IMG/VR virus record: IMGVR_UViG_3300044771_000012
Span: 1-64,000 of that record
Origin: a virus
Strand: one strand, 5' to 3'
DNA: 64,000 bases
Numbering within the stretch: position 1 is the stretch's first letter; each line of letters begins with the position of its first letter. A program made the position numbers and the translations under genes. Shown here one piece after another: positions 40,654 through 44,712 of the stretch. The notes beneath the pieces are model-generated. The model made no database searches, was not told the DNA's origin, and saw only the letters and a program-made list of their open reading frames with translations.

Positions 40654-41223
40654 ATGAAGAGGGTATGTATTGATCCCGGTCATGGTGGAATTCAGCCGGG
40701 TGCGGTTTATGGTGATCTTCTCGAAAAAGATGTCAATCTCAAGGTCGCCGAATATGCCGTCGAGGGCCTACGGGCCGTTAATTCCGATATTTGGATAGGA
40801 CTTACCCGAACCTTCGACCGAACCACATCTCTCCAAGAACGGTGTGATCTTTCCAATGGTATGAACGTCGATTGCTTTATCTCGATCCATTGTAACGCCG
40901 ACCCGGACACGGATGAACCTGGGATGCCCGAAGCAAGGGGGGAAGAAATCTGGTTTTTCAAAGGAAGTCGAGAAGGATTAAAACTTTCTCAATGCCTCTC
41001 CGACGAAGTGGATCAGATTTTTCCCGATGAACCCTTTCGAGGGATCAAGGAAACCGAAGGTCTTTACGTCCTGAAACATACGAACGCCCCGGCCTGCCTG
41101 ATCGAGATCGGATTTATCGACAAATCCTCATCGGTCGAAACCTTCTCCGATGAATTGACGCTCCGAAAGATTGGAGCCCTGGTCGCAAGGGGGATCAATG
41201 AATACCTTTCTCTCGTTCGTTAA
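40654..41223 (+). CDS. N-acetylmuramoyl-L-alanine amidase (Amidase_3) endolysin
   Basis: ATG after AGGAGG. Contains CIDPGHGG, E in LLEKDVNL and ISIHCNA, the zinc-ligand pattern of the family. Confidence 0.85.
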   Translation: MKRVCIDPGHGGIQPGAVYGDLLEKDVNLKVAEYAVEGLRAVNSDIWIGLTRTFDRTTSLQERCDLSNGMNVDCFISIHCNADPDTDEPGMPEARGEEIWFFKGSREGLKLSQCLSDEVDQIFPDEPFRGIKETEGLYVLKHTNAPACLIEIGFIDKSSSVETFSDELTLRKIGALVARGINEYLSLVR

Positions 41224-41617
41224 GAAGATGCCTTTTTGGTTTTGGATTGCTCTGGCCGTTTTTATCTTCCTCGCCTGGCAATCTCTTTCTGGGTGGGCCA
41301 TGTCCCGCAAACTCTATAAGATGGCCCTCAATAATCTTCGCCAGGATCAGACACAAATTATTAAAGAAAAGGATGCCTGGATCAAAACCTGCGAAGATGA
41401 GATTTTGCAGATCAAAGCGGAAAAGGATAAGATTGCTAAGGAGAAAATTATCGCTCAACAAGACGCTACGAACTCTAAGGTTAAGGTCGTTCGTCTGGAA
41501 GGAGAGAACGATGCGCTTCGTATTAAAATTCGGAATGTTATTGTTTCTGATGATCCTGATCGGATCATTGATGATTTGCGGAAACGCTTTCCCTCAATCC
41601 GTAAGATTCAGCCTTGA
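41198..41617 (+). CDS. i-spanin-like protein (N-terminal TM plus coiled coil)
   Basis: TM segment FWFWIALAVFIFLAW followed by a helical region. Lies downstream of the endolysin. Start is 41198 or 41228. Confidence 0.45.
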   Translation: MNTFLSFVKKMPFWFWIALAVFIFLAWQSLSGWAMSRKLYKMALNNLRQDQTQIIKEKDAWIKTCEDEILQIKAEKDKIAKEKIIAQQDATNSKVKVVRLEGENDALRIKIRNVIVSDDPDRIIDDLRKRFPSIRKIQP

Positions 41618-41957
41618 TCTTCCCGATCTGAAAGAATGGGACAAACAAACCCAGGAATATCCTTTGATTAAAAAATTAGTTGATTCGCAGGCAACCACTA
41701 TCTCCGAATTAGAAAAATCCCTTGCCATCGCTCAAAAGGAAAGAGATTTAGAGAAGCGAGAAAACGAATTGAATTTGAGGATAATTGGGATCAAAGACAA
41801 AGAGATCGCCGCTATCAACCGAAACTTCGATCAGATGAAGGAGGTTGCGGATCGGGCGATTAAACTGGCGGAGACTTCAAAACCTAAATCGAATTGGGAA
41901 TTGTATGGTGTGATCGGAGCCCTCGTCGCTGTTGCCATTTACGCTATCGCTCATTAA
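41511..41957 (+). CDS. signal-peptide/lipobox-like coiled-coil protein with C-terminal TM, overlapping the previous gene (spanin-like)
   Basis: ATG after GGAGAG inside the 3' end of 41198..41617 in another frame. N-terminus reads MRFVLKFGMLLFLMILIGSLMICGN. Confidence 0.45.
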   Translation: MRFVLKFGMLLFLMILIGSLMICGNAFPQSVRFSLDLPDLKEWDKQTQEYPLIKKLVDSQATTISELEKSLAIAQKERDLEKRENELNLRIIGIKDKEIAAINRNFDQMKEVADRAIKLAETSKPKSNWELYGVIGALVAVAIYAIAH

Positions 41958-42268
41958 TCTTCCCAAAGACTTTTTTGTGCAGAAGGCCCAGGGGTTGCCT
42001 CGGTATCTTCCACCCTCGGTGTGGCGACTGGTTGGTCGCTTGTCGGGGCCTCCATTTTAATGTCTTCGATCTTTGAGTCCGGGAATGTTTTTTTCACCGA
42101 ATGAACCTTCCGTAGATAATCGGCGTATCTCTCCGGCTTCATGTTCTTCTCGGATGCCTTCAAAAATTTGATTTCTTTCTCTGAGTAACAGACTTGTCCC
42201 TCGACCGGGACTTCGCTGAGACAGATTGTTTCATTGAGGATTTTAGAGTGGACGAGGATGGGTTTCAT
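41954..42268 (-). CDS. hypothetical protein
   Basis: 104-aa ORF downstream of tRNA-Asn on the minus strand. Confidence 0.5.
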   Translation of the reverse strand: MKPILVHSKILNETICLSEVPVEGQVCYSEKEIKFLKASEKNMKPERYADYLRKVHSVKKTFPDSKIEDIKMEAPTSDQPVATPRVEDTEATPGPSAQKSLWED

Positions 42269-42276
42269 AATATAAC

Positions 42277-42347
42277 TGCGGTGGAGGGGATCGAACCCCC
42301 GACATCCGATTTAACAAACCGGCGTTCTACCCCTGAACTACACCGCA
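42277..42347 (-). tRNA. tRNA-Asn (anticodon GTT)
   Basis: Hand-folded cloverleaf. Acceptor TGCGGTG/CACCGCA, D arm GTTC-AGGGGTA-GAAC, anticodon arm CCGGT-TTGTTAA-ATCGG (GTT at 42313-42315), variable ATGTC, T arm GGGGG-TTCGATC-CCCTC. No encoded CCA. Confidence 0.85.
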
Positions 42348-42533
42348 TAAATTTGGGGCCTTCCCGTCAAGGAAGCCTTGGAAGTTCCAGTTAAAGTGAG
42401 AAAGCAACTTTCCCAAGGTCATTCTCTCCGCTTCCGCTTCGAGGCCAACCTTCCTTCCTTTGTTCTTCCGTCCTTGCCGATTCTGATCCTTGCAACCTTA
42501 CTGCCTGATCCTTGAGCCTTGCACTTTAAGCGG

Positions 42534-42604
42534 CGTTTGCTCTAACCTACTGAGCTACCCCCCCATAAGTGGGGGGGGAAGGAGTCGAACCTCCGCACAA
42601 ACGC
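42534..42604 (-). ncRNA. circularly permuted tRNA-like element (3' half, 5-nt linker, 5' half)
   Basis: The minus strand reads GCGTT-TGTGC-GGAGG-TTCGACT-CCTTC-CCCCCCC-A (42604..42570), then CTTAT, then GGGGGGG-TA-GCTC-AGTAGGTTA-GAGC-A-AACGC (42564..42534). All stems are complementary. T8, A14, G18G19, T54T55C56, A58 and G53-C61 are present. No 7-nt anticodon loop can be formed. Confidence 0.6.
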
Positions 42605-42701
42605 TTGGCCTGCTAATCCATTTAGCAGATGGTTGTCTTTCTGTCGATCAGACATCGCTCACTTTCCCGGTTTTTATCTCTCGCCGTAAGGCCCTTCCCT
42701 C

Positions 42702-43370
42702 CTATTTTTGAAGTTTGATGGCGGGCTTCGCAGGACTCGTTTTCTGATAAATAAAAGAAGCCGTCTCTGTCGATGCTCCCCATATATTACGAGAACTAAC
42801 ATTGAAGGTATGACTGCCCGATGGTAGATTGGTCACGTCATACCAAAGAATAATTTTCCCGGTTGCGTCGATCTTTGCTATCGACGTGATGGTCGTCGGA
42901 CTTCCATCTTTTCTGATTAAGAAATCGTCTGGGATTCCCACGCCAGAGCCGGGAACATAGGGATCGCAAGTTAAAAAAATATTCGTCCCTTGCTTAACAA
43001 TCTTCAATATTGGAAGCACGGGGATTGCTTTCGTAAAGGTTAAGGCTTGCGAAGGATCACTACACTTATCGGCCTCGATGCAGGCTAACGCCCGGACGGT
43101 ATAAACGCCATCCGGCAAGGCGATCTCCCACCAGAGGTCAACTTTATTTAGTGCATCAATCCTTGGCGGAGTCGTGACATCCTCATGTTTGGCGTAATCG
43201 AATTTAAGAATAAAACTCGTGGGCATTACCTTTTGGCCCGCTTCATCGCATCCAACCGTCCCGATTGTGCAAGGGCCTGGGACATATTGATCGCAGGTTA
43301 GGTGCGGAAGACCAAGGGCGGCCTGTGTAATAAGAAAAAAAACAAGGACGGTCGTTATAAGAATTTTCAT
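42702..43370 (-). CDS. exported two-domain protein (signal peptide)
   Basis: AGGAGACC RBS. Signal peptide MKILITTVLVFFLITQAALG. Internal duplication (LTCDQYVPGPC / LTCDPYVPGSG). Confidence 0.65.
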   Translation of the reverse strand: MKILITTVLVFFLITQAALGLPHLTCDQYVPGPCTIGTVGCDEAGQKVMPTSFILKFDYAKHEDVTTPPRIDALNKVDLWWEIALPDGVYTVRALACIEADKCSDPSQALTFTKAIPVLPILKIVKQGTNIFLTCDPYVPGSGVGIPDDFLIRKDGSPTTITSIAKIDATGKIILWYDVTNLPSGSHTFNVSSRNIWGASTETASFIYQKTSPAKPAIKLQK

Positions 43371-43454
43371 CGAGGTCTCCTATGCGGGCGAAGTGACGGG
43401 GGTGAGTAGGCTATCTAAGGGCCTTTGGAGCCCGTCACCCGCCCGCCAAAAAGA

Positions 43455-43772
43455 TTATTTTAATTCAGGCGTTCCTGCGGTCATCCCCAGGTTGGAAGCC
43501 TTCGCTCCGGCAACATGGAGTAATACGATGTCGGAAATGTTTTCGATCCCGGCTCCCAAGTCGGCATCCCCAGACACCAGGAAGGTCGAATCGCCAGGGT
43601 TATCCCCGGATTTCACATAGAAAGAGTTTCCATCCAGGAGTTCAACCGTCCCATCACCCGATTGAACGGAAACCTGGATCGGCCCATCGAGAAGCACCGG
43701 CTTCCCTGCCGCCGTAACTGGATTCGTTGTAACCTTGATCTTCTCCTCGTTTGTGCAAGATAGTTCCAACAT
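43455..43772 (-). CDS. Ig-like (Big_2-type) domain protein
   Basis: ATG at 43772 after AGGAG. The pattern of beta-rich sequence VTTNPVTAAGKPVLLDGPIQVSVQSGDGTV...GDSTFLVSGDADLG fits. Internal start of the track ORF. Confidence 0.45.
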   Translation of the reverse strand: MLELSCTNEEKIKVTTNPVTAAGKPVLLDGPIQVSVQSGDGTVELLDGNSFYVKSGDNPGDSTFLVSGDADLGAGIENISDIVLLHVAGAKASNLGMTAGTPELK

Positions 43773-43905
43773 AATTTGTTTTCTCCTTTCTTTGAGTTCT
43801 GGCCGCCCTACCTTCCAATTAAAATGGACGGGTTGAGAGATTCGATGGATGACTTCAAACTTCTGTGGAATGTGGTGAAAAACATCTACCTTCATCTCAA
43901 TCCTA

Positions 43906-44175
43906 TCACCCCCTCTCTGGTTCGACTTTATAAAGCAATGGTAGATCAGACTCCGGGGTAGTGACCCATCCCGGCGATGCCTCTAATTCTGTTACCTGAT
44001 CTGCCAGGTCTCCGAAGCCCTGGATATGCACGTTAAGGGTCATGTGGAGTTCTTCTCCTGGGGTCATAGAATAAGTCTTGCGTTCAAAACCGATCTTACT
44101 ACCACGATAGTCGGCTTCTACTCCGAACGTCACCCGATCACCAGAGATACCCATTACTTTCAGAGTGAAAGGCAT
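43906..44175 (-). CDS. hypothetical protein
   Basis: 89-aa ORF, tightly spaced after the upstream gene. Confidence 0.5.
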   Translation of the reverse strand: MPFTLKVMGISGDRVTFGVEADYRGSKIGFERKTYSMTPGEELHMTLNVHIQGFGDLADQVTELEASPGWVTTPESDLPLLYKVEPERG

Positions 44176-44178
44176 AAC

Positions 44179-44712
44179 TTACTCCTCGATCAATTCGGTG
44201 ATAGCATTCGTTACTTCAAGGTTTGCATCAACGATTGACGCTTCCGAACGATAGAGTTCACTCTTGTTGTCTCGCTCTGCGGGATCATAGTATCTCCGAA
44301 CCTTGACGGCAATAGTGTCTCCGCTCGTCACTTTGGCCTGGCCGTCTTTGAGATTCTTGTCCGTTAAAGCAAGGTAAGCCTTTTGCTCTTGACCTGCGAG
44401 TCCACTTCCTTTTACGCCCCTTCGCATGATCCACGCAGTAATCGGTTTGGTGATCTGCTTACCTCCGATCTCCATCGTGACCATGGTGGCCAGGTTCGTC
44501 CTGGTGATGGCCAGGCGAAGGTCTTCAACCTTCTTAATGATGTCGTGATGGGCTTGGAGCCAGTCCTTGACCTGTTCCCTTTGCTGATCCGGCGTTCCAT
44601 AGGTCGGGGTCTCGAAATCCAGATCAACGCAATACTTGGCGATCTTCTGTTTCAGATCGTCAGCCTTCCTTAATAAATCTTGAACCTGTTTCATTGCTTG
44701 AATGAGTTTCAT
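44179..44712 (-). CDS. DIP1984/septicolysin-like family protein
   Basis: From memory of the family: MKL...helical N-terminus, the ITRTN motif and a C-terminal ...LEVTNAITELIE resembling the NW.TEL ending. Confidence 0.4.
   Translation of the reverse strand: MKLIQAMKQVQDLLRKADDLKQKIAKYCVDLDFETPTYGTPDQQREQVKDWLQAHHDIIKKVEDLRLAITRTNLATMVTMEIGGKQITKPITAWIMRRGVKGSGLAGQEQKAYLALTDKNLKDGQAKVTSGDTIAVKVRRYYDPAERDNKSELYRSEASIVDANLEVTNAITELIEE

What the first reader, a model, noticed from the sequence alone, without database searches (positions are those of the whole stretch)
42534..42604. Circularly permuted tRNA-like gene: complete cloverleaf body with closed acceptor stem and open anticodon end
**What the sequence shows.** On the minus strand the order is: anticodon-stem 3' strand GCGTT, variable TGTGC, T arm GGAGG-TTCGACT-CCTTC, acceptor 3' strand CCCCCCC, discriminator A. 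A 5-nt linker CTTAT follows. Then come the acceptor 5' strand GGGGGGG, TA, D arm GCTC-AGTAGGTTA-GAGC, A, and anticodon-stem 5' strand AACGC.

Every stem is complementary at canonical spacing. The universal tertiary nucleotides are present (T8, A14, G18G19, A21, G53-C61, T54T55C56, A58). But the 3' half precedes the 5' half, and no 7-nt anticodon loop with U33 can be assembled from the flanks.

**Alternatives tested.** It is not the junction of two tandem tRNA genes. The missing halves are absent on both sides: there is no GGGGGGG upstream and no T arm before tRNA-Asn.

**Interpretation.** This topology is, as I recall, that of the tRNA-like module of bacterial/phage YrlA Y RNAs (Ro60/Rsr partners). 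It is also the gene order of two-piece tmRNA and of the permuted tRNA genes of Cyanidioschyzon. RNase P and 3' processing at the linker would produce a two-piece RNA held together by the acceptor and anticodon stems.

**Context.** The flanks contain an 8-bp complementarity (AAAGTGAG at 42662-42655 with CTCACTTT at 42404-42397, minus-strand reading). This could close a basal helix. The element sits between an exported-protein gene and tRNA-Asn, so it would be co-transcribed with them.
Basis: partly seen in the sequence, partly recalled or inferred. Interest (0 to 1): 0.85.

Follow-up and report, generated by a model that had tools for sequence, protein, structure and literature searches.

The report
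Permuted tRNA-like domain in phage RNA
The rearranged tRNA look-alike is real and conserved, but it is only one domain of a roughly 345-base, intricately folded phage RNA that is nearly always encoded beside one protein of unknown function and that matches no family in the RNA-family library searched here.

Summary
On the minus strand at 42604-42533 lies a complete cloverleaf body in the order anticodon-stem 3' strand, variable loop, T arm, acceptor hairpin, D arm, anticodon-stem 5' strand. ARAGORN does not call it. Rfam YrlA matches only this core (32.7 bits, gathering score 69).

It is not a stand-alone gene. It is the variable domain of a ~345-nt RNA (42698-42352, minus strand) with nested closing helices, two pseudoknots, a GNRA hairpin and seven AAGG motifs at fixed spacing. 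In 16 homologues, 94.9% of cells pair and 36 of 70 pairs show compensatory changes.

The RNA lies beside a DIP1984/DUF6847-like gene on the same strand in 72 of 80 IMG/VR loci. At the same site, 35 of those 72 relatives carry an ordinary tRNA, 4-5 carry a permuted module and the rest carry neither.

The phage has no Ro60/Rsr gene. The YrlA Ro-binding motif is not conserved. tmRNA hallmarks are absent.

Best reading: a new phage RNA family whose embedded tRNA became circularly permuted into a YrlA-like tRNA mimic. Its function is inferred only. It is probably an RNA-protein particle, with the tRNA shape serving as a handle for stability or processing.

The parts
42352..42698 (-). Whole structured RNA, ~345 nt. 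RNA position n corresponds to window coordinate 42699-n.
   Evidence: It is conserved end to end in 16 homologues. In the curated structure, 94.9% of cells pair and 36 of 70 pairs carry double changes, versus 12 +/- 2.4 in shuffles and 6-12 in slid controls.
42533..42604 (-). Circularly permuted tRNA-like domain. Order: anticodon-like stem 3' strand, variable loop, T arm, closed acceptor, D arm, anticodon-like stem 5' strand.
42565..42570 (-). Acceptor-closing loop ACUUAU: discriminator-like A followed by CUUAU. RNase P would cut just 3' of it, before G1 at 42564.
   Evidence: The loop is conserved as ACUUAY in the subgroup. The loop is GCCUUAU in the distant member L316. Cleavage is inferred from M. 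smegmatis YrlA (PMC4201824).
42688..42694 (-). P1 basal helix, 5' strand GGGCCUU. It pairs with 42356-42362.
   Evidence: It covaries: GGGUC/GACCC in L131, GGGAC/GUCCC in L142, GUACC/GGUAC in L187.
42356..42362 (-). P1 basal helix, 3' strand AAGGCCC.
42677..42686 (-). P1b/P2 5' strand CGGCGAGAGA. It contains the GNCGAA-like GGCGAG and pairs with 42365-42373.
   Evidence: The six variable pairs are 5.27 of 6 paired across 48 distinct family members, versus 3.76 +/- 0.13 with shuffled partners.
42365..42373 (-). P1b/P2 3' strand UCCUUGACG (first U is the last U of GCUU).
42667..42670 (-). P3 5' strand CCGG. It pairs with 42387-42390.
42387..42390 (-). P3 3' strand CUGG.
42658..42665 (-). It pairs with 42393-42400.
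   Evidence: Compensatory changes occur in L187, L035 and L251.
42393..42400 (-). P4 3' strand CUCACUUU.
42635..42657 (-). H-type pseudoknot PK1. S1 is CGAU/AUCG. The loop GUCU pairs with the downstream AGAC.
   Evidence: S2 covaries: GCCU/AGGC, GCUAUG/CAUAGC, GCAAGA/UCUUGC, GUAUG/CAUAC.
42618..42632 (-). Anticodon-arm-like hairpin CCAU-CUGCUAA-AUGG. An alternative 7-bp hairpin can form at 42610-42628.
   Evidence: The stem covaries (CCGA/UCGG, CCCA/UGGG, CACC/GGUG, GCGA/UCGC). The same 7-nt loop occurs in the V arm of phage YrlA RNAs that lie next to Rsr.
42447..42524 (-). Purine-rich array with seven conserved AAGG motifs, predicted unpaired.
   Evidence: The RNA has 11 AAGG, versus 2.8 +/- 1.6 in shuffles. 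The motif positions 179/186/200/208/224/239/247 are identical in the window and in the distant member L251.
42424..42443 (-). P5 hairpin CUCGAAGC-GGAA-GCGGAGAG, with a GNRA loop and three tandem non-Watson-Crick pairs.
   Evidence: It is nearly invariant. The loop is GGAA, GUAA, GCAA or GAAA. It served as the search seed.
42413..42418 (-). P6 5' strand CCUUGG. This long-range pseudoknot pairs with 42376-42381 and crosses P3 and P4.
   Evidence: 96.9% of cells pair. The four variable pairs are 3.30 of 4 paired across 44 distinct family members, versus 2.09 +/- 0.10 shuffled, and 28 of 44 are perfect.
42376..42381 (-). P6 3' strand CCAAGG.
44179..44712 (-). 177-aa DIP1984/DUF6847-like protein gene, the RNA's conserved genomic partner.
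   Evidence: It gives a weak NCBIfam DIP1984_fam hit. Homologues carry Pfam PF20935. The best fold match of the AF2 model (pLDDT 92.8) is PDB 3KDQ. The RNA is adjacent in 72 of 80 IMG/VR loci.
42276..42347 (-). tRNA-Asn(GUU), an optional neighbour directly 3' of the RNA and not part of it.
   Evidence: It is present in only 4 of the close relatives.

Best explanation
**What is shown.**
- The element is a real, selectively maintained, circularly permuted tRNA-like domain with a closed acceptor stem and an open anticodon-like stem.
- It occupies the variable domain of a ~345-nt phage non-coding RNA (42698-42352, minus strand).
- That RNA has nested closing helices P1-P4, an H-type pseudoknot, a long-range pseudoknot (P6), a GNRA hairpin and seven AAGG motifs at fixed spacing.
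- The RNA belongs to a large family of uncultivated tailed phages that matches no Rfam 15 model.
- The family is almost always encoded directly beside a DIP1984/DUF6847-like protein gene on the same strand.
- At the same internal site, other members carry an ordinary tRNA, a permuted module or neither.

**What is inferred about origin.** The permuted domain arose from an embedded tRNA by tandem duplication and loss. L187 and L293 look like intermediates. This makes it a YrlA-like mimic by topology, not a Ro60 partner.

**What is inferred about mechanism.**
- The RNA is co-transcribed with the upstream early genes.
- The scaffold and AAGG array carry the core function, most likely binding the DUF6847-like protein to form an RNA-protein particle in the early, counter-defence region of the genome.
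- The tRNA-shaped domain acts as a stability and processing handle read by host tRNA enzymes.
- With its 7-bp acceptor, RNase P could cut before G1 and CCA could be added after A73. That would give a nicked two-piece RNA held together by P1-P4, P6, the anticodon-like stem and the acceptor stem, as shown for M. smegmatis YrlA.
For: **Sequence and Rfam.**

**Homologues.** Sixteen homologues were found through neighbouring proteins and a conserved-motif scan.

**Secondary structure.**
- RNAalifold gives 28 of 64 pairs with compensatory changes.
- The curated structure, pseudoknots included, has 94.9% of cells paired and 36 of 70 pairs with double changes. No shuffle out of 500 reaches that, and slid controls give 36-54% paired.
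- P2 and P6 covary across about 45 further distinct members.

**Tertiary pair.** G19-C56 has become A19-U56 in L158.

**Protein partner.**
- The RNA is adjacent to a DUF6847-like gene in all close relatives with enough sequence.
- It is adjacent in the divergent L187 and L242 in other arrangements.
- It is adjacent in L246, L249 and L251.
- It is adjacent in 72 of 80 IMG/VR loci.

**Content of the variable site.** A normal tRNA sits at the same site in 35 of 72 RNAs and a permuted module in 4-5. L242 has none.

**Rfam on other members.** The scaffold matches no Rfam family in 12 diverse members.

**Neighbourhood.** Neighbours include Tad2-like, Acb2/Tad1-like, DNA methylases and a pentapeptide-repeat protein.

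Against: - No transcript, processing or binding data exist. Every functional step is inference.
- In most close relatives the seventh acceptor pair is an A-C mismatch.
- Other permuted members have only 4-5-bp acceptors closed by GNRA-like loops. RNase P cleavage therefore cannot be general.
- The closing loop ACUUAY is conserved, which fits a recognition site better than a discarded linker.
- About a third to a half of family members lack any tRNA-like domain, so that domain is dispensable for the core function.
- In this window the DUF6847-like gene lies 1.5 kb away, not adjacent.
- The protein family has no known function.
- The family may already sit unnamed in bulk catalogues of viral candidate RNAs (PMC10690425).
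Confidence: 0.6

Rival explanations
1. It is a genuine YrlA-type Y RNA. Its 5'/3' stem would bind the host's Ro60/Rsr ring, and its tRNA-like module would recruit an effector such as PNPase, as in Deinococcus and Salmonella.
For: - Rfam YrlA is the top hit, at a score typical of phage YrlA RNAs that do lie next to Rsr: 32.7 bits here versus 33-58 bits there.
- The 5' flank contains ACGGCGA, identical to the start of the YrlA consensus.
- The hairpin loop CUGCUAA equals the V-arm loops of Rsr-linked YrlA RNAs.
Against: - No TROVE/Ro60 gene is present in the window or in the 3.4 kb that completes the circular genome.
- The GNCGAA positions vary (RGCRAGAG, AAAUAGAG, GCAUGGAG) and covary as helix P1b/P2.
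- YrlA model positions 1-22 and 86-114 do not align.
- The conserved neighbour is DUF6847, not TROVE.
- The host is unknown, so a host Rsr cannot be excluded.
Confidence: 0.08
2. It is a tRNA decoy or sponge against a host tRNA-targeting defence such as an anticodon nuclease, or against another tRNA-binding factor. The scaffold displays a tRNA or tRNA-shaped bait. The permuted version lacks a cleavable anticodon loop and so would be an uncleavable competitor.
For: - Half of the family embeds real tRNAs, some with anticodons unsuited to decoding, such as AUU, AAU, ACU, AGG and UUA.
- The locus lies among counter-defence genes: Tad2-like, Acb2/Tad1-like, methylases.
- Phage tRNAs are known to counter retron and other tRNA-cleaving systems (bioRxiv 10.1101/2023.03.15.532788, listed).
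Against: - Many members carry no tRNA-like domain, so the conserved function cannot depend on it.
- Anticodon identities are scattered.
- No cognate defence system has been identified.
Confidence: 0.15
3. It is a processing or cis-regulatory element for its neighbours. The tRNA-like fold would mark RNase P/RNase Z cuts that separate the upstream mRNA from tRNA-Asn. Alternatively, P1 would hide the purine-rich ribosome-binding region of the downstream 104-aa ORF.
For: - There is no promoter or terminator between the genes.
- In relatives without tRNA-Asn, the downstream ORF starts about 10 nt after P1 with no separate Shine-Dalgarno sequence.
Against: - Upstream and downstream genes differ widely across the family, while the RNA and DUF6847 remain constant.
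- Two pseudoknots and a fixed AAGG array are far more than a punctuation mark needs.
Confidence: 0.1
4. It is a two-piece, circularly permuted tmRNA-like RNA that is charged and rescues or hijacks ribosomes.
For: - The gene order matches (T arm, acceptor 3' strand, linker, acceptor 5' strand) and pseudoknots are present.
- Weak local hits to beta_tmRNA and tmRNA_permuted cover only the T arm and acceptor.
Against: - All acceptor pairs are G-C, with no G3:U70.
- No CCA is encoded.
- A full D arm is present.
- The stop codon of the only long frame is not conserved, and the AAGG spacing of 7-8 nt is not in triplets.
- ARAGORN is negative.
- Relatives carry complete tRNAs with anticodon arms.
Confidence: 0.02
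5. It is a decaying relic of tandem tRNA genes, an attP-type tRNA fragment or an assembly artefact, with no function of its own.
For: - L187 shows a T-arm remnant followed by a complete tRNA at this site. Duplication and decay did therefore occur in this lineage.
Against: - The same permuted order occurs in many independent assemblies.
- Compensatory changes keep the variable stems intact; the D stem is invariant. One tertiary pair is also kept by a double change.
- No Pfam integrase match was found among the ORFs scanned.
- Both break points fall exactly at the ends of the 5-bp stem.
Confidence: 0.03

Closest known systems
YrlA (Rfam RF02553), the bacterial and phage Y RNA-like partner of Ro60/Rsr
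   Same: - The permuted order is the same: V hairpin, T arm, closed acceptor stem, D arm, closing stem.
- The tRNA tertiary nucleotides are kept.
- The V hairpin carries the same 7-nt loop (C/A)UGCUAA.
- The rest of the RNA joins through the anticodon-stem position.
- A 7-bp acceptor, as in M. smegmatis YrlA, is an RNase P and CCA-adding substrate (PMC4201824).
   Different: - No Rsr gene is nearby.
- The GNCGAA(N0-1)G site is not conserved.
- The scaffold is about 270 nt larger, with two pseudoknots, an AAGG array and a GNRA hairpin.
- The partner gene is DUF6847-like.
- In relatives the domain can be swapped for an ordinary tRNA or lost.
- The score is below the Rfam gathering score.
Two-piece (circularly permuted) tmRNA
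   Same: - The gene order of T arm, acceptor 3' strand, linker and acceptor 5' strand is the same.
- Pseudoknots are present.
- Cleavage at the linker would likewise give two base-paired pieces.
   Different: - There is no G3:U70, no CCA and no conserved tag reading frame.
- A true D arm is present.
- ARAGORN and Rfam do not recognise it.
Permuted tRNA genes of Cyanidioschyzon merolae
   Same: The 3' half lies upstream of the 5' half, joined by a short linker at the acceptor ends.
   Different: - Those genes yield a mature tRNA through a circular intermediate and a bulge-helix-bulge (BHB) motif.
- Here no anticodon loop exists, and the anticodon stem continues into a larger RNA.
Large ornate phage-associated RNAs (ROOL, GOLLD)
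   Same: - They are phage or prophage encoded, hundreds of nucleotides long and pseudoknotted.
- They carry lineage-specific GNRA hairpins and often lie beside tRNA genes.
   Different: - There is no sequence or model match.
- This RNA is smaller.
- The tRNA lies inside the RNA.
- It has a dedicated protein-gene neighbour.
Phage T4 small stable RNAs (species 1 and 2) in the tRNA cluster (from my own knowledge, not checked here)
   Same: They are phage stable RNAs of unknown function, co-transcribed and processed with tRNAs by RNase P through tRNA-like features.
   Different: They are much smaller. No permuted cloverleaf, AAGG array or DUF6847 partner is known for them.

Membership tests
YrlA / bacterial Y RNA (RF02553) | tRNA-like domain in permuted order (V, T arm, closed acceptor stem, D arm) with tRNA tertiary nucleotides | tested here: met
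   Sequence reading. Rfam alignment to model positions 23-85. Covariation.
YrlA / bacterial Y RNA (RF02553) | Conserved GNCGAA(N0-1)G Ro60-binding motif near the 5' end (PMC4201824) | tested here: not met
   The window has GGCGAGAG, one mismatch. Family members have AGCAAGAG, GGCAAGAG, AAAUAGAG and GCAUGGAG. These positions covary as helix P1b/P2.
YrlA / bacterial Y RNA (RF02553) | Encoded within about 4 kb of a TROVE/Ro60 (rsr) gene on the same strand | tested here: not met
   Pfam finds no TROVE domain in any scanned large ORF. tblastn with six confirmed and two candidate phage Rsr proteins finds nothing in the window or in the 3.4 kb that completes the 67.4-kb circle. In contrast, 6 of 10 other phage loci with permuted modules have Rsr adjacent.
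YrlA / bacterial Y RNA (RF02553) | Rfam gathering score (69 bits) and a full-length model match | tested here: not met
   The score is 32.7 bits, over model positions 23-85 of 114 only. Caveat: Rsr-adjacent phage YrlA RNAs also score only 33-58 bits.
YrlA / bacterial Y RNA (RF02553) | Physical binding to Ro60/Rsr | not testable with these tools
   This needs immunoprecipitation. The host is unknown.
tmRNA (standard or two-piece) | G3:U70 alanine identity pair and a 3' CCA | tested here: not met
   The acceptor is G1-G7/C66-C72, all G-C. L240 has G3-C70. The discriminator A is followed by CUUAU.
tmRNA (standard or two-piece) | Conserved tag reading frame with resume and stop codons | tested here: not met
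   The stop of the only long frame (UAA in the window, UGA in L127) is absent in L131 and L209. The internal UAA is not conserved. Motif spacing is 7-8 nt.
tmRNA (standard or two-piece) | Recognition by ARAGORN or the Rfam tmRNA models | tested here: not met
   ARAGORN finds none. beta_tmRNA scores 18.7 bits and tmRNA_permuted 16.5 bits, covering only the T arm and acceptor.
Canonical or permuted tRNA gene | A 7-nt anticodon loop with U33, directly or after rejoining of the ends | tested here: not met
   The flanks of the 5-bp stem (GGCCAA before, CGCUUAA after) give no such loop. ARAGORN and the Rfam tRNA model do not call it.
CsrB/RsmZ-type CsrA sponge (considered for the purine array) | Many GGA motifs, typically in hairpin loops | tested here: not met
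   The conserved motif is AAGG followed by A, C or U. The distant member L251 keeps the seven AAGG positions but has only 3 GGA. No Csr/Rsm Rfam hit appears at E <= 10.
New family proposed here: DUF6847-associated phage RNA | Scaffold P1-P4 plus PK1 plus AAGG array plus P5 plus P6 pseudoknot, with motifs GAGAUAAAAAC, GGAACUU and GGCUUCC | tested here: met
New family proposed here: DUF6847-associated phage RNA | Same-strand neighbourhood with a DIP1984/DUF6847-like gene | tested here: met
   In the window the gene is at 44179-44712, 1.5 kb upstream on the same strand, with small genes inserted between. It is adjacent in 72 of 80 IMG/VR loci.

The most novel reading that the evidence does not exclude
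A widespread, undescribed phage RNA-protein system. A doubly pseudoknotted ~350-nt RNA carries a fixed seven-site AAGG array. It pairs with a DIP1984/DUF6847 protein and displays a tRNA or an uncleavable permuted tRNA mimic. After RNase P nicking, the mimic could carry a free CCA end open to charging. The system would subvert a host tRNA-dependent process or a defence system during early infection. That would be a new class of viral tRNA mimicry in DNA phages, independent of Ro60 and of tmRNA.
Probability: 0.2. Interest if true: 0.9.

Novelty: new variant of a known kind. Interest (0 to 1): 0.8.

Why it matters
- **Permuted tRNA mimics are not tied to Ro60.** Closed-acceptor, open-anticodon tRNA mimics were known in bacteria and phages essentially only from YrlA, the Ro60-associated Y RNA-like family. 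This element arose inside a different phage RNA scaffold, with visible intermediates (L187, L293). It therefore gives a natural series for studying how RNA domains become permuted.
- **A possible new RNA-protein module.** The follow-up exposes what appears to be an unannotated, strongly covarying RNA family. It was found here in more than 90 phage contigs and is coupled to a protein family (DIP1984/DUF6847) of unknown function, in genome regions rich in counter-defence genes. That gives the protein family its first concrete lead, an RNA partner.
- **A practical point for annotation.** The Rfam YrlA gathering score of 69 bits missed every Rsr-adjacent phage YrlA examined here.

Tried and rejected
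**Searches that found nothing useful**
- Megablast of 41000-44000 against cultured phages gave no match.
- A distant blastn of the cassette matched only tRNA genes. Its single hit on the module (Cronobacter phage EspYZU15) proved to be an ordinary tRNA-Tyr/tRNA-Ile junction.
- Exact G7/C7 acceptor patterns in the viral and genome collections gave 0 hits.
- A scaffold pattern in genome contigs gave 120 loci, none confirmed by the family profile. The host therefore stays unknown.
- Sequence searches of the 177-aa protein and its profile against PDB chains gave nothing significant.
- tblastn of that protein against cultured phages gave no match.
- Literature searches for DIP1984 and DUF6847 gave nothing relevant.

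**Structural ideas dropped**
- A GGCCAA/TTGGCC helix extending the anticodon-like stem is not conserved in L127 or L131.
- The single-sequence MFE fold is uninformative, with z = -0.71.

**Functional ideas dropped**
- CsrA sponge: GGA is not conserved.
- tmRNA tag ORF: the stop codon is not conserved.
- attP or integrase remnant: no Pfam integrase match among the ORFs scanned.
- Partnership with the upstream 222-aa secreted protein: that gene and its 146-aa neighbour form a mobile pair. Most RNA-bearing relatives lack the pair, and it sits elsewhere in L121 and L128.
Full report
**1. The observation**

The minus strand at 42604-42533 reads GCGTT TGTGC GGAGG-TTCGACT-CCTTC CCCCCCC A CTTAT GGGGGGG TA GCTC-AGTAGGTTA-GAGC A AACGC. 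This is a full cloverleaf body with the 3' half placed before the 5' half. The acceptor stem is closed by a 6-nt loop and the anticodon-like stem is open.

So is the G15-C48 Levitt pair.

- ARAGORN and the Rfam gathering-threshold scan see only tRNA-Asn at 42276-42347.
- A pattern for T loop, closed acceptor and D arm occurs once in the window and in 0 of 100 shuffles.
- A permissive Rfam scan gives YrlA as the best hit: 32.7 bits, gathering score 69, E = 2.2e-5. It covers model positions 23-85 of 114 only, which is the tRNA-like core. Weak tmRNA hits cover just the T arm and acceptor.

| Feature | Reader | Actual |
|---|---|---|
| Element end | 42534 | 42533 |
| AAAGTGAG | 42662-42655 | 42665-42658 |
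| CTCACTTT | 42404-42397 | 42400-42393 |

**2. Genome context**

The window is a tailed phage. It has an SU10-like portal, a terminase and RecT.

It is a circular permutation of a 67,394-bp Logan contig. The missing 3.4 kb encodes a MoxR-type AAA_5/CbbQ_C ATPase and small ORFs.

No TROVE/Ro60 gene exists anywhere in this genome. Pfam found none in the large ORFs scanned. tblastn with six confirmed phage Rsr proteins and two unannotated candidates found none.

The element lies at the end of the leftward operon, facing the lysis genes. No promoter-like or terminator-like site lies nearby on its strand.

**3. Ordinary phage YrlA RNAs, for comparison**

A generic pattern scan of IMG/VR found many closed-acceptor permuted modules. 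The large ORF nearest the module was scanned in ten of these loci, and six of the ten are Rsr (TROVE/vWA_Ro60) proteins lying next to it. All of the modules score 33-58 bits against Rfam YrlA, below the gathering score.

The window's score is therefore typical for a phage YrlA-like module. What differs is the absence of Rsr.

Chen et al. 2014 (PMC4201824) define YrlA by three features:
- the permuted tRNA-like domain;
- a GNCGAA(N0-1)G motif near the 5' end;
- proximity to rsr.

They also show that M. smegmatis YrlA, which has a 7-bp acceptor, is cut by RNase P and receives CCA in vivo.

**4. Homologues show a much larger RNA**

Relatives of the upstream 222-aa protein led to L127 and L131. 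In both, the whole stretch from that gene's stop codon to just before tRNA-Asn is conserved. L131 has no tRNA-Asn.

A conserved block, GAAGCGNAAGCGGAGAGAA, was then scanned in IMG/VR and in the metagenome contigs. Hits were filtered with an nhmmer profile. This gave 16 distinct full-length members and two partial ones.

RNAalifold predicts a multi-helix fold in which 28 of 64 pairs carry compensatory changes. I curated the structure by hand. RNA position n corresponds to window coordinate 42699-n.

| Element | RNA positions |
|---|---|
| P1 | 5-11 / 337-343 |
| P1b and P2 | 13-22 / 326-334 |
| P3 | 29-32 / 309-312 |
| H-type pseudoknot PK1 | 42-64 |
| Anticodon-arm-like hairpin, loop CUGCUAA | 67-81 |
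| tRNA-like domain | 95-166 |
| Unpaired AAGG array | about 175-252 |
| GNRA hairpin P5 | 256-275 |
| P6, long-range pseudoknot crossing P3 and P4 | 281-286 / 318-323 |

Pair counts on the 16 sequences were as follows.

| Measure | Observed | Shuffles | Slid controls |
|---|---|---|---|
| Cells paired | 94.9% | 86.7 +/- 0.5% | 36-54% |
| Pairs with changes on both sides (of 70) | 36 | 12 +/- 2.4 | 6-12 |

No shuffle out of 500 reached the observed values.

Within the tRNA-like domain:
- the anticodon-like, T and acceptor stems all show double changes;
- in L158 the tertiary pair G19-C56 has become A19-U56.

Lineage-specific hairpins with GNRA loops are inserted at two peripheral sites.

**5. 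The conserved partner is a DIP1984/DUF6847-like gene**

Synteny analysis shows that the 146-aa and 222-aa genes and tRNA-Asn are optional insertions.

The constant neighbour is a 177-aa protein at 44179-44712, which is 81-88% identical among close relatives.
- It gives a weak NCBIfam DIP1984_fam hit.
- Its homologues carry Pfam PF20935, DUF6847.
- Its AF2 model has pLDDT 92.8. The model shows a long helical hairpin plus a small beta domain.
- The best fold match is PDB 3KDQ, a C. diphtheriae protein of unknown function.
- The viral structure library returns only uncharacterised proteins.

The RNA and this gene keep company in other arrangements too.
- In L187 the RNA directly follows the gene. 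In L242 it directly precedes it.
- In more distant phages the gene is again followed by the RNA: L246 to L251, 55-57% protein identity.
- Of 80 IMG/VR loci holding such a gene (38-56% identity), 72 contain the RNA on the same strand. It usually starts right after the stop codon, or it ends right before the start codon.
- Anchored counts across about 45 further distinct members confirm the P2 extension: 5.27 of 6 paired, versus 3.76 +/- 0.13 with shuffled partners.
- They also confirm P6: 3.30 of 4 paired, versus 2.09 +/- 0.10.
- No Rfam family matches the scaffold in 12 diverse members.

Neighbouring genes beyond this pair vary. They include Tad2-like, Acb2/Tad1-like, DNA methylases, a pentapeptide-repeat protein, ERCC4, RecA and a MoxR ATPase. 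This is a typical early, accessory and counter-defence region.

**6. What sits at the variable site**

| Content of the site (72 IMG/VR RNAs) | Count |
|---|---|
| Ordinary, normal-order tRNA | 35 |
| Permuted closed-acceptor module | 4-5 |
| Neither | about 33 |

- The commonest tRNA is Thr-UGU.
- Some anticodons are odd for decoding: AUU, AAU, ACU, AGG and UUA.
- The permuted modules are L271, L306, L316, L331 and probably L293. Some have only 4-5-bp acceptors closed by GNRA-like loops.

L242 keeps only a GCUC-GAAA-GAGC hairpin at this site.

Two members look like intermediates:
- L187 has a T-arm remnant followed by a complete tRNA-Val(AAC).
- L293 has an anticodon arm (GCU), a long variable arm, a T arm, a closed acceptor and a D arm.

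The permuted domain therefore most likely arose from an embedded tRNA by duplication and loss. Its resemblance to YrlA may be convergent, or may reflect common descent from a tRNA-Ser(GCU)-like ancestor.

**7. The AAGG array**

The window RNA has 11 AAGG, against 2.8 +/- 1.6 expected from shuffles. Seven of them sit at positions 179, 186, 200, 208, 224, 239 and 247. These positions are identical in the distant member L251.

- GGA is not conserved, which argues against a CsrA sponge.
- The spacing of 7-8 and 14-16 nt is not in triplets, and stop codons are not conserved, which argues against a coding tag.
- Fixed spacing suggests a multi-site protein-binding platform or a compact tertiary element. 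This is inference.

**8. Mechanism**

*Shown:* the domain and the whole RNA are under selection for structure, and the RNA is genomically coupled to the DUF6847-like gene.

*Inferred:*
- The RNA is co-transcribed with the early genes.
- It forms a particle with the DUF6847-like protein, with the AAGG array as the likely binding site.
- The tRNA-shaped domain acts as a handle for stability or processing, read by tRNA enzymes.
- In this window, with its 7-bp acceptor, RNase P cleavage before G1 and CCA addition would give a two-piece RNA, as in M. smegmatis YrlA.

*Caveats:*
- The seventh acceptor pair is an A-C mismatch in most relatives.
- The loop ACUUAY is conserved, which hints at recognition rather than removal. 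L316 has GCCUUAU.
- Many members lack the domain altogether.

**9. Verdict**

It is wrong on family membership: the element is not a Ro60-type YrlA, a tmRNA or a permuted tRNA gene.

The finding opens onto a new, widespread phage RNA family with a dedicated protein-gene partner. It may already appear unnamed in bulk catalogues of viral candidate RNAs (PMC10690425). I found no description or Rfam model of it.

Noticed in passing
window 42702-43895 (-); L121 3323-4666; L128 1609-2842: The 146-aa gene and the 222-aa signal-peptide gene just upstream of the RNA behave as a mobile two-gene cassette. They are present here and in L127 and L131. Most RNA-bearing relatives lack them. In L121 and L128 they sit in quite different places, for example before the terminase.
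   Followed up: partly
window 42276-42347 (-): tRNA-Asn(GUU) is inserted between the RNA and the downstream ORF in only some relatives: the window, L127, L209 and L151. It lacks an encoded CCA. Similar short sequences flank it (TTTATG before, TTATATTATG after), which suggests insertion into the UUUUAUG start region of the next gene.
   Followed up: partly
window 41954-42268 (-): A 104-aa ORF was not called in the Logan annotation. It is nevertheless conserved at mostly 56-75% identity in relatives (39% in L131). In relatives without tRNA-Asn it starts about 10 nt after helix P1 with no separate Shine-Dalgarno sequence. The purine-rich 3' strand of P1 may double as its ribosome-binding region.
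   Followed up: no
L125 2635-4499 (the 3.4 kb of the phage genome outside the window); L252 3363-4298; L246 5923-6558: The phage encodes a MoxR-type AAA_5/CbbQ_C ATPase followed by a 292-aa protein. In L252 the same kind of ATPase lies immediately downstream of the RNA, and L246 has a VWA protein nearby. This may be a recurrent third component.
   Followed up: no
L019, L037, L041, L082, L098, L119 (IMG/VR): Phage YrlA-like RNAs that lie directly next to TROVE/vWA_Ro60 genes score only 33-58 bits against Rfam YrlA, whose gathering score is 69. Standard annotation therefore misses them. Their V arms have 7-nt anticodon-like loops such as CUGCUAA, AUGCUAA, CUGGUAA and CUUGUAA.
   Followed up: partly
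L011 1-1713; L065 1989-3653: Two permuted tRNA-like elements with full-length sub-threshold YrlA matches lie next to 555-571-aa proteins that have no Pfam hit. These proteins are of Ro60 size and could be very divergent Ro60 relatives or a different partner.
   Followed up: no
window 42610-42632 (-): Two mutually exclusive hairpins are both supported by relatives: CCAU-CUGCUAA-AUGG and CUGCUAA-AUGGA-UUAGCAG. This may be a conformational switch just 5' of the tRNA-like domain.
   Followed up: partly
L151, L166, L132, L163, L227, L245, L203 (A2 columns 24-54 and 462-479): Lineage-specific hairpins capped by GNRA loops are inserted at two peripheral sites of the RNA. Examples are GUGUCC-GUGA-GGACAC and GACCC-GAAA/GUAA-GGGUC, with AACCC/GGGUU in L203. 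This is typical of large RNAs with tertiary contacts.
   Followed up: no
L160 7440-7620: Only the 3' domain of the RNA is present here (AAGG array, P5, P6 and P2 strands). There is no recognisable 5' half, and no DUF6847-like gene in the 9.3 kb held. It may be a truncated or two-gene version.
   Followed up: no
L227 2886-2961; L151 5033-5108; L240 965-1039; L127 1645-1719: Close relatives carry a tRNA-Met(CAU) directly after the DUF6847-like gene. The window phage has none at that spot.
   Followed up: no
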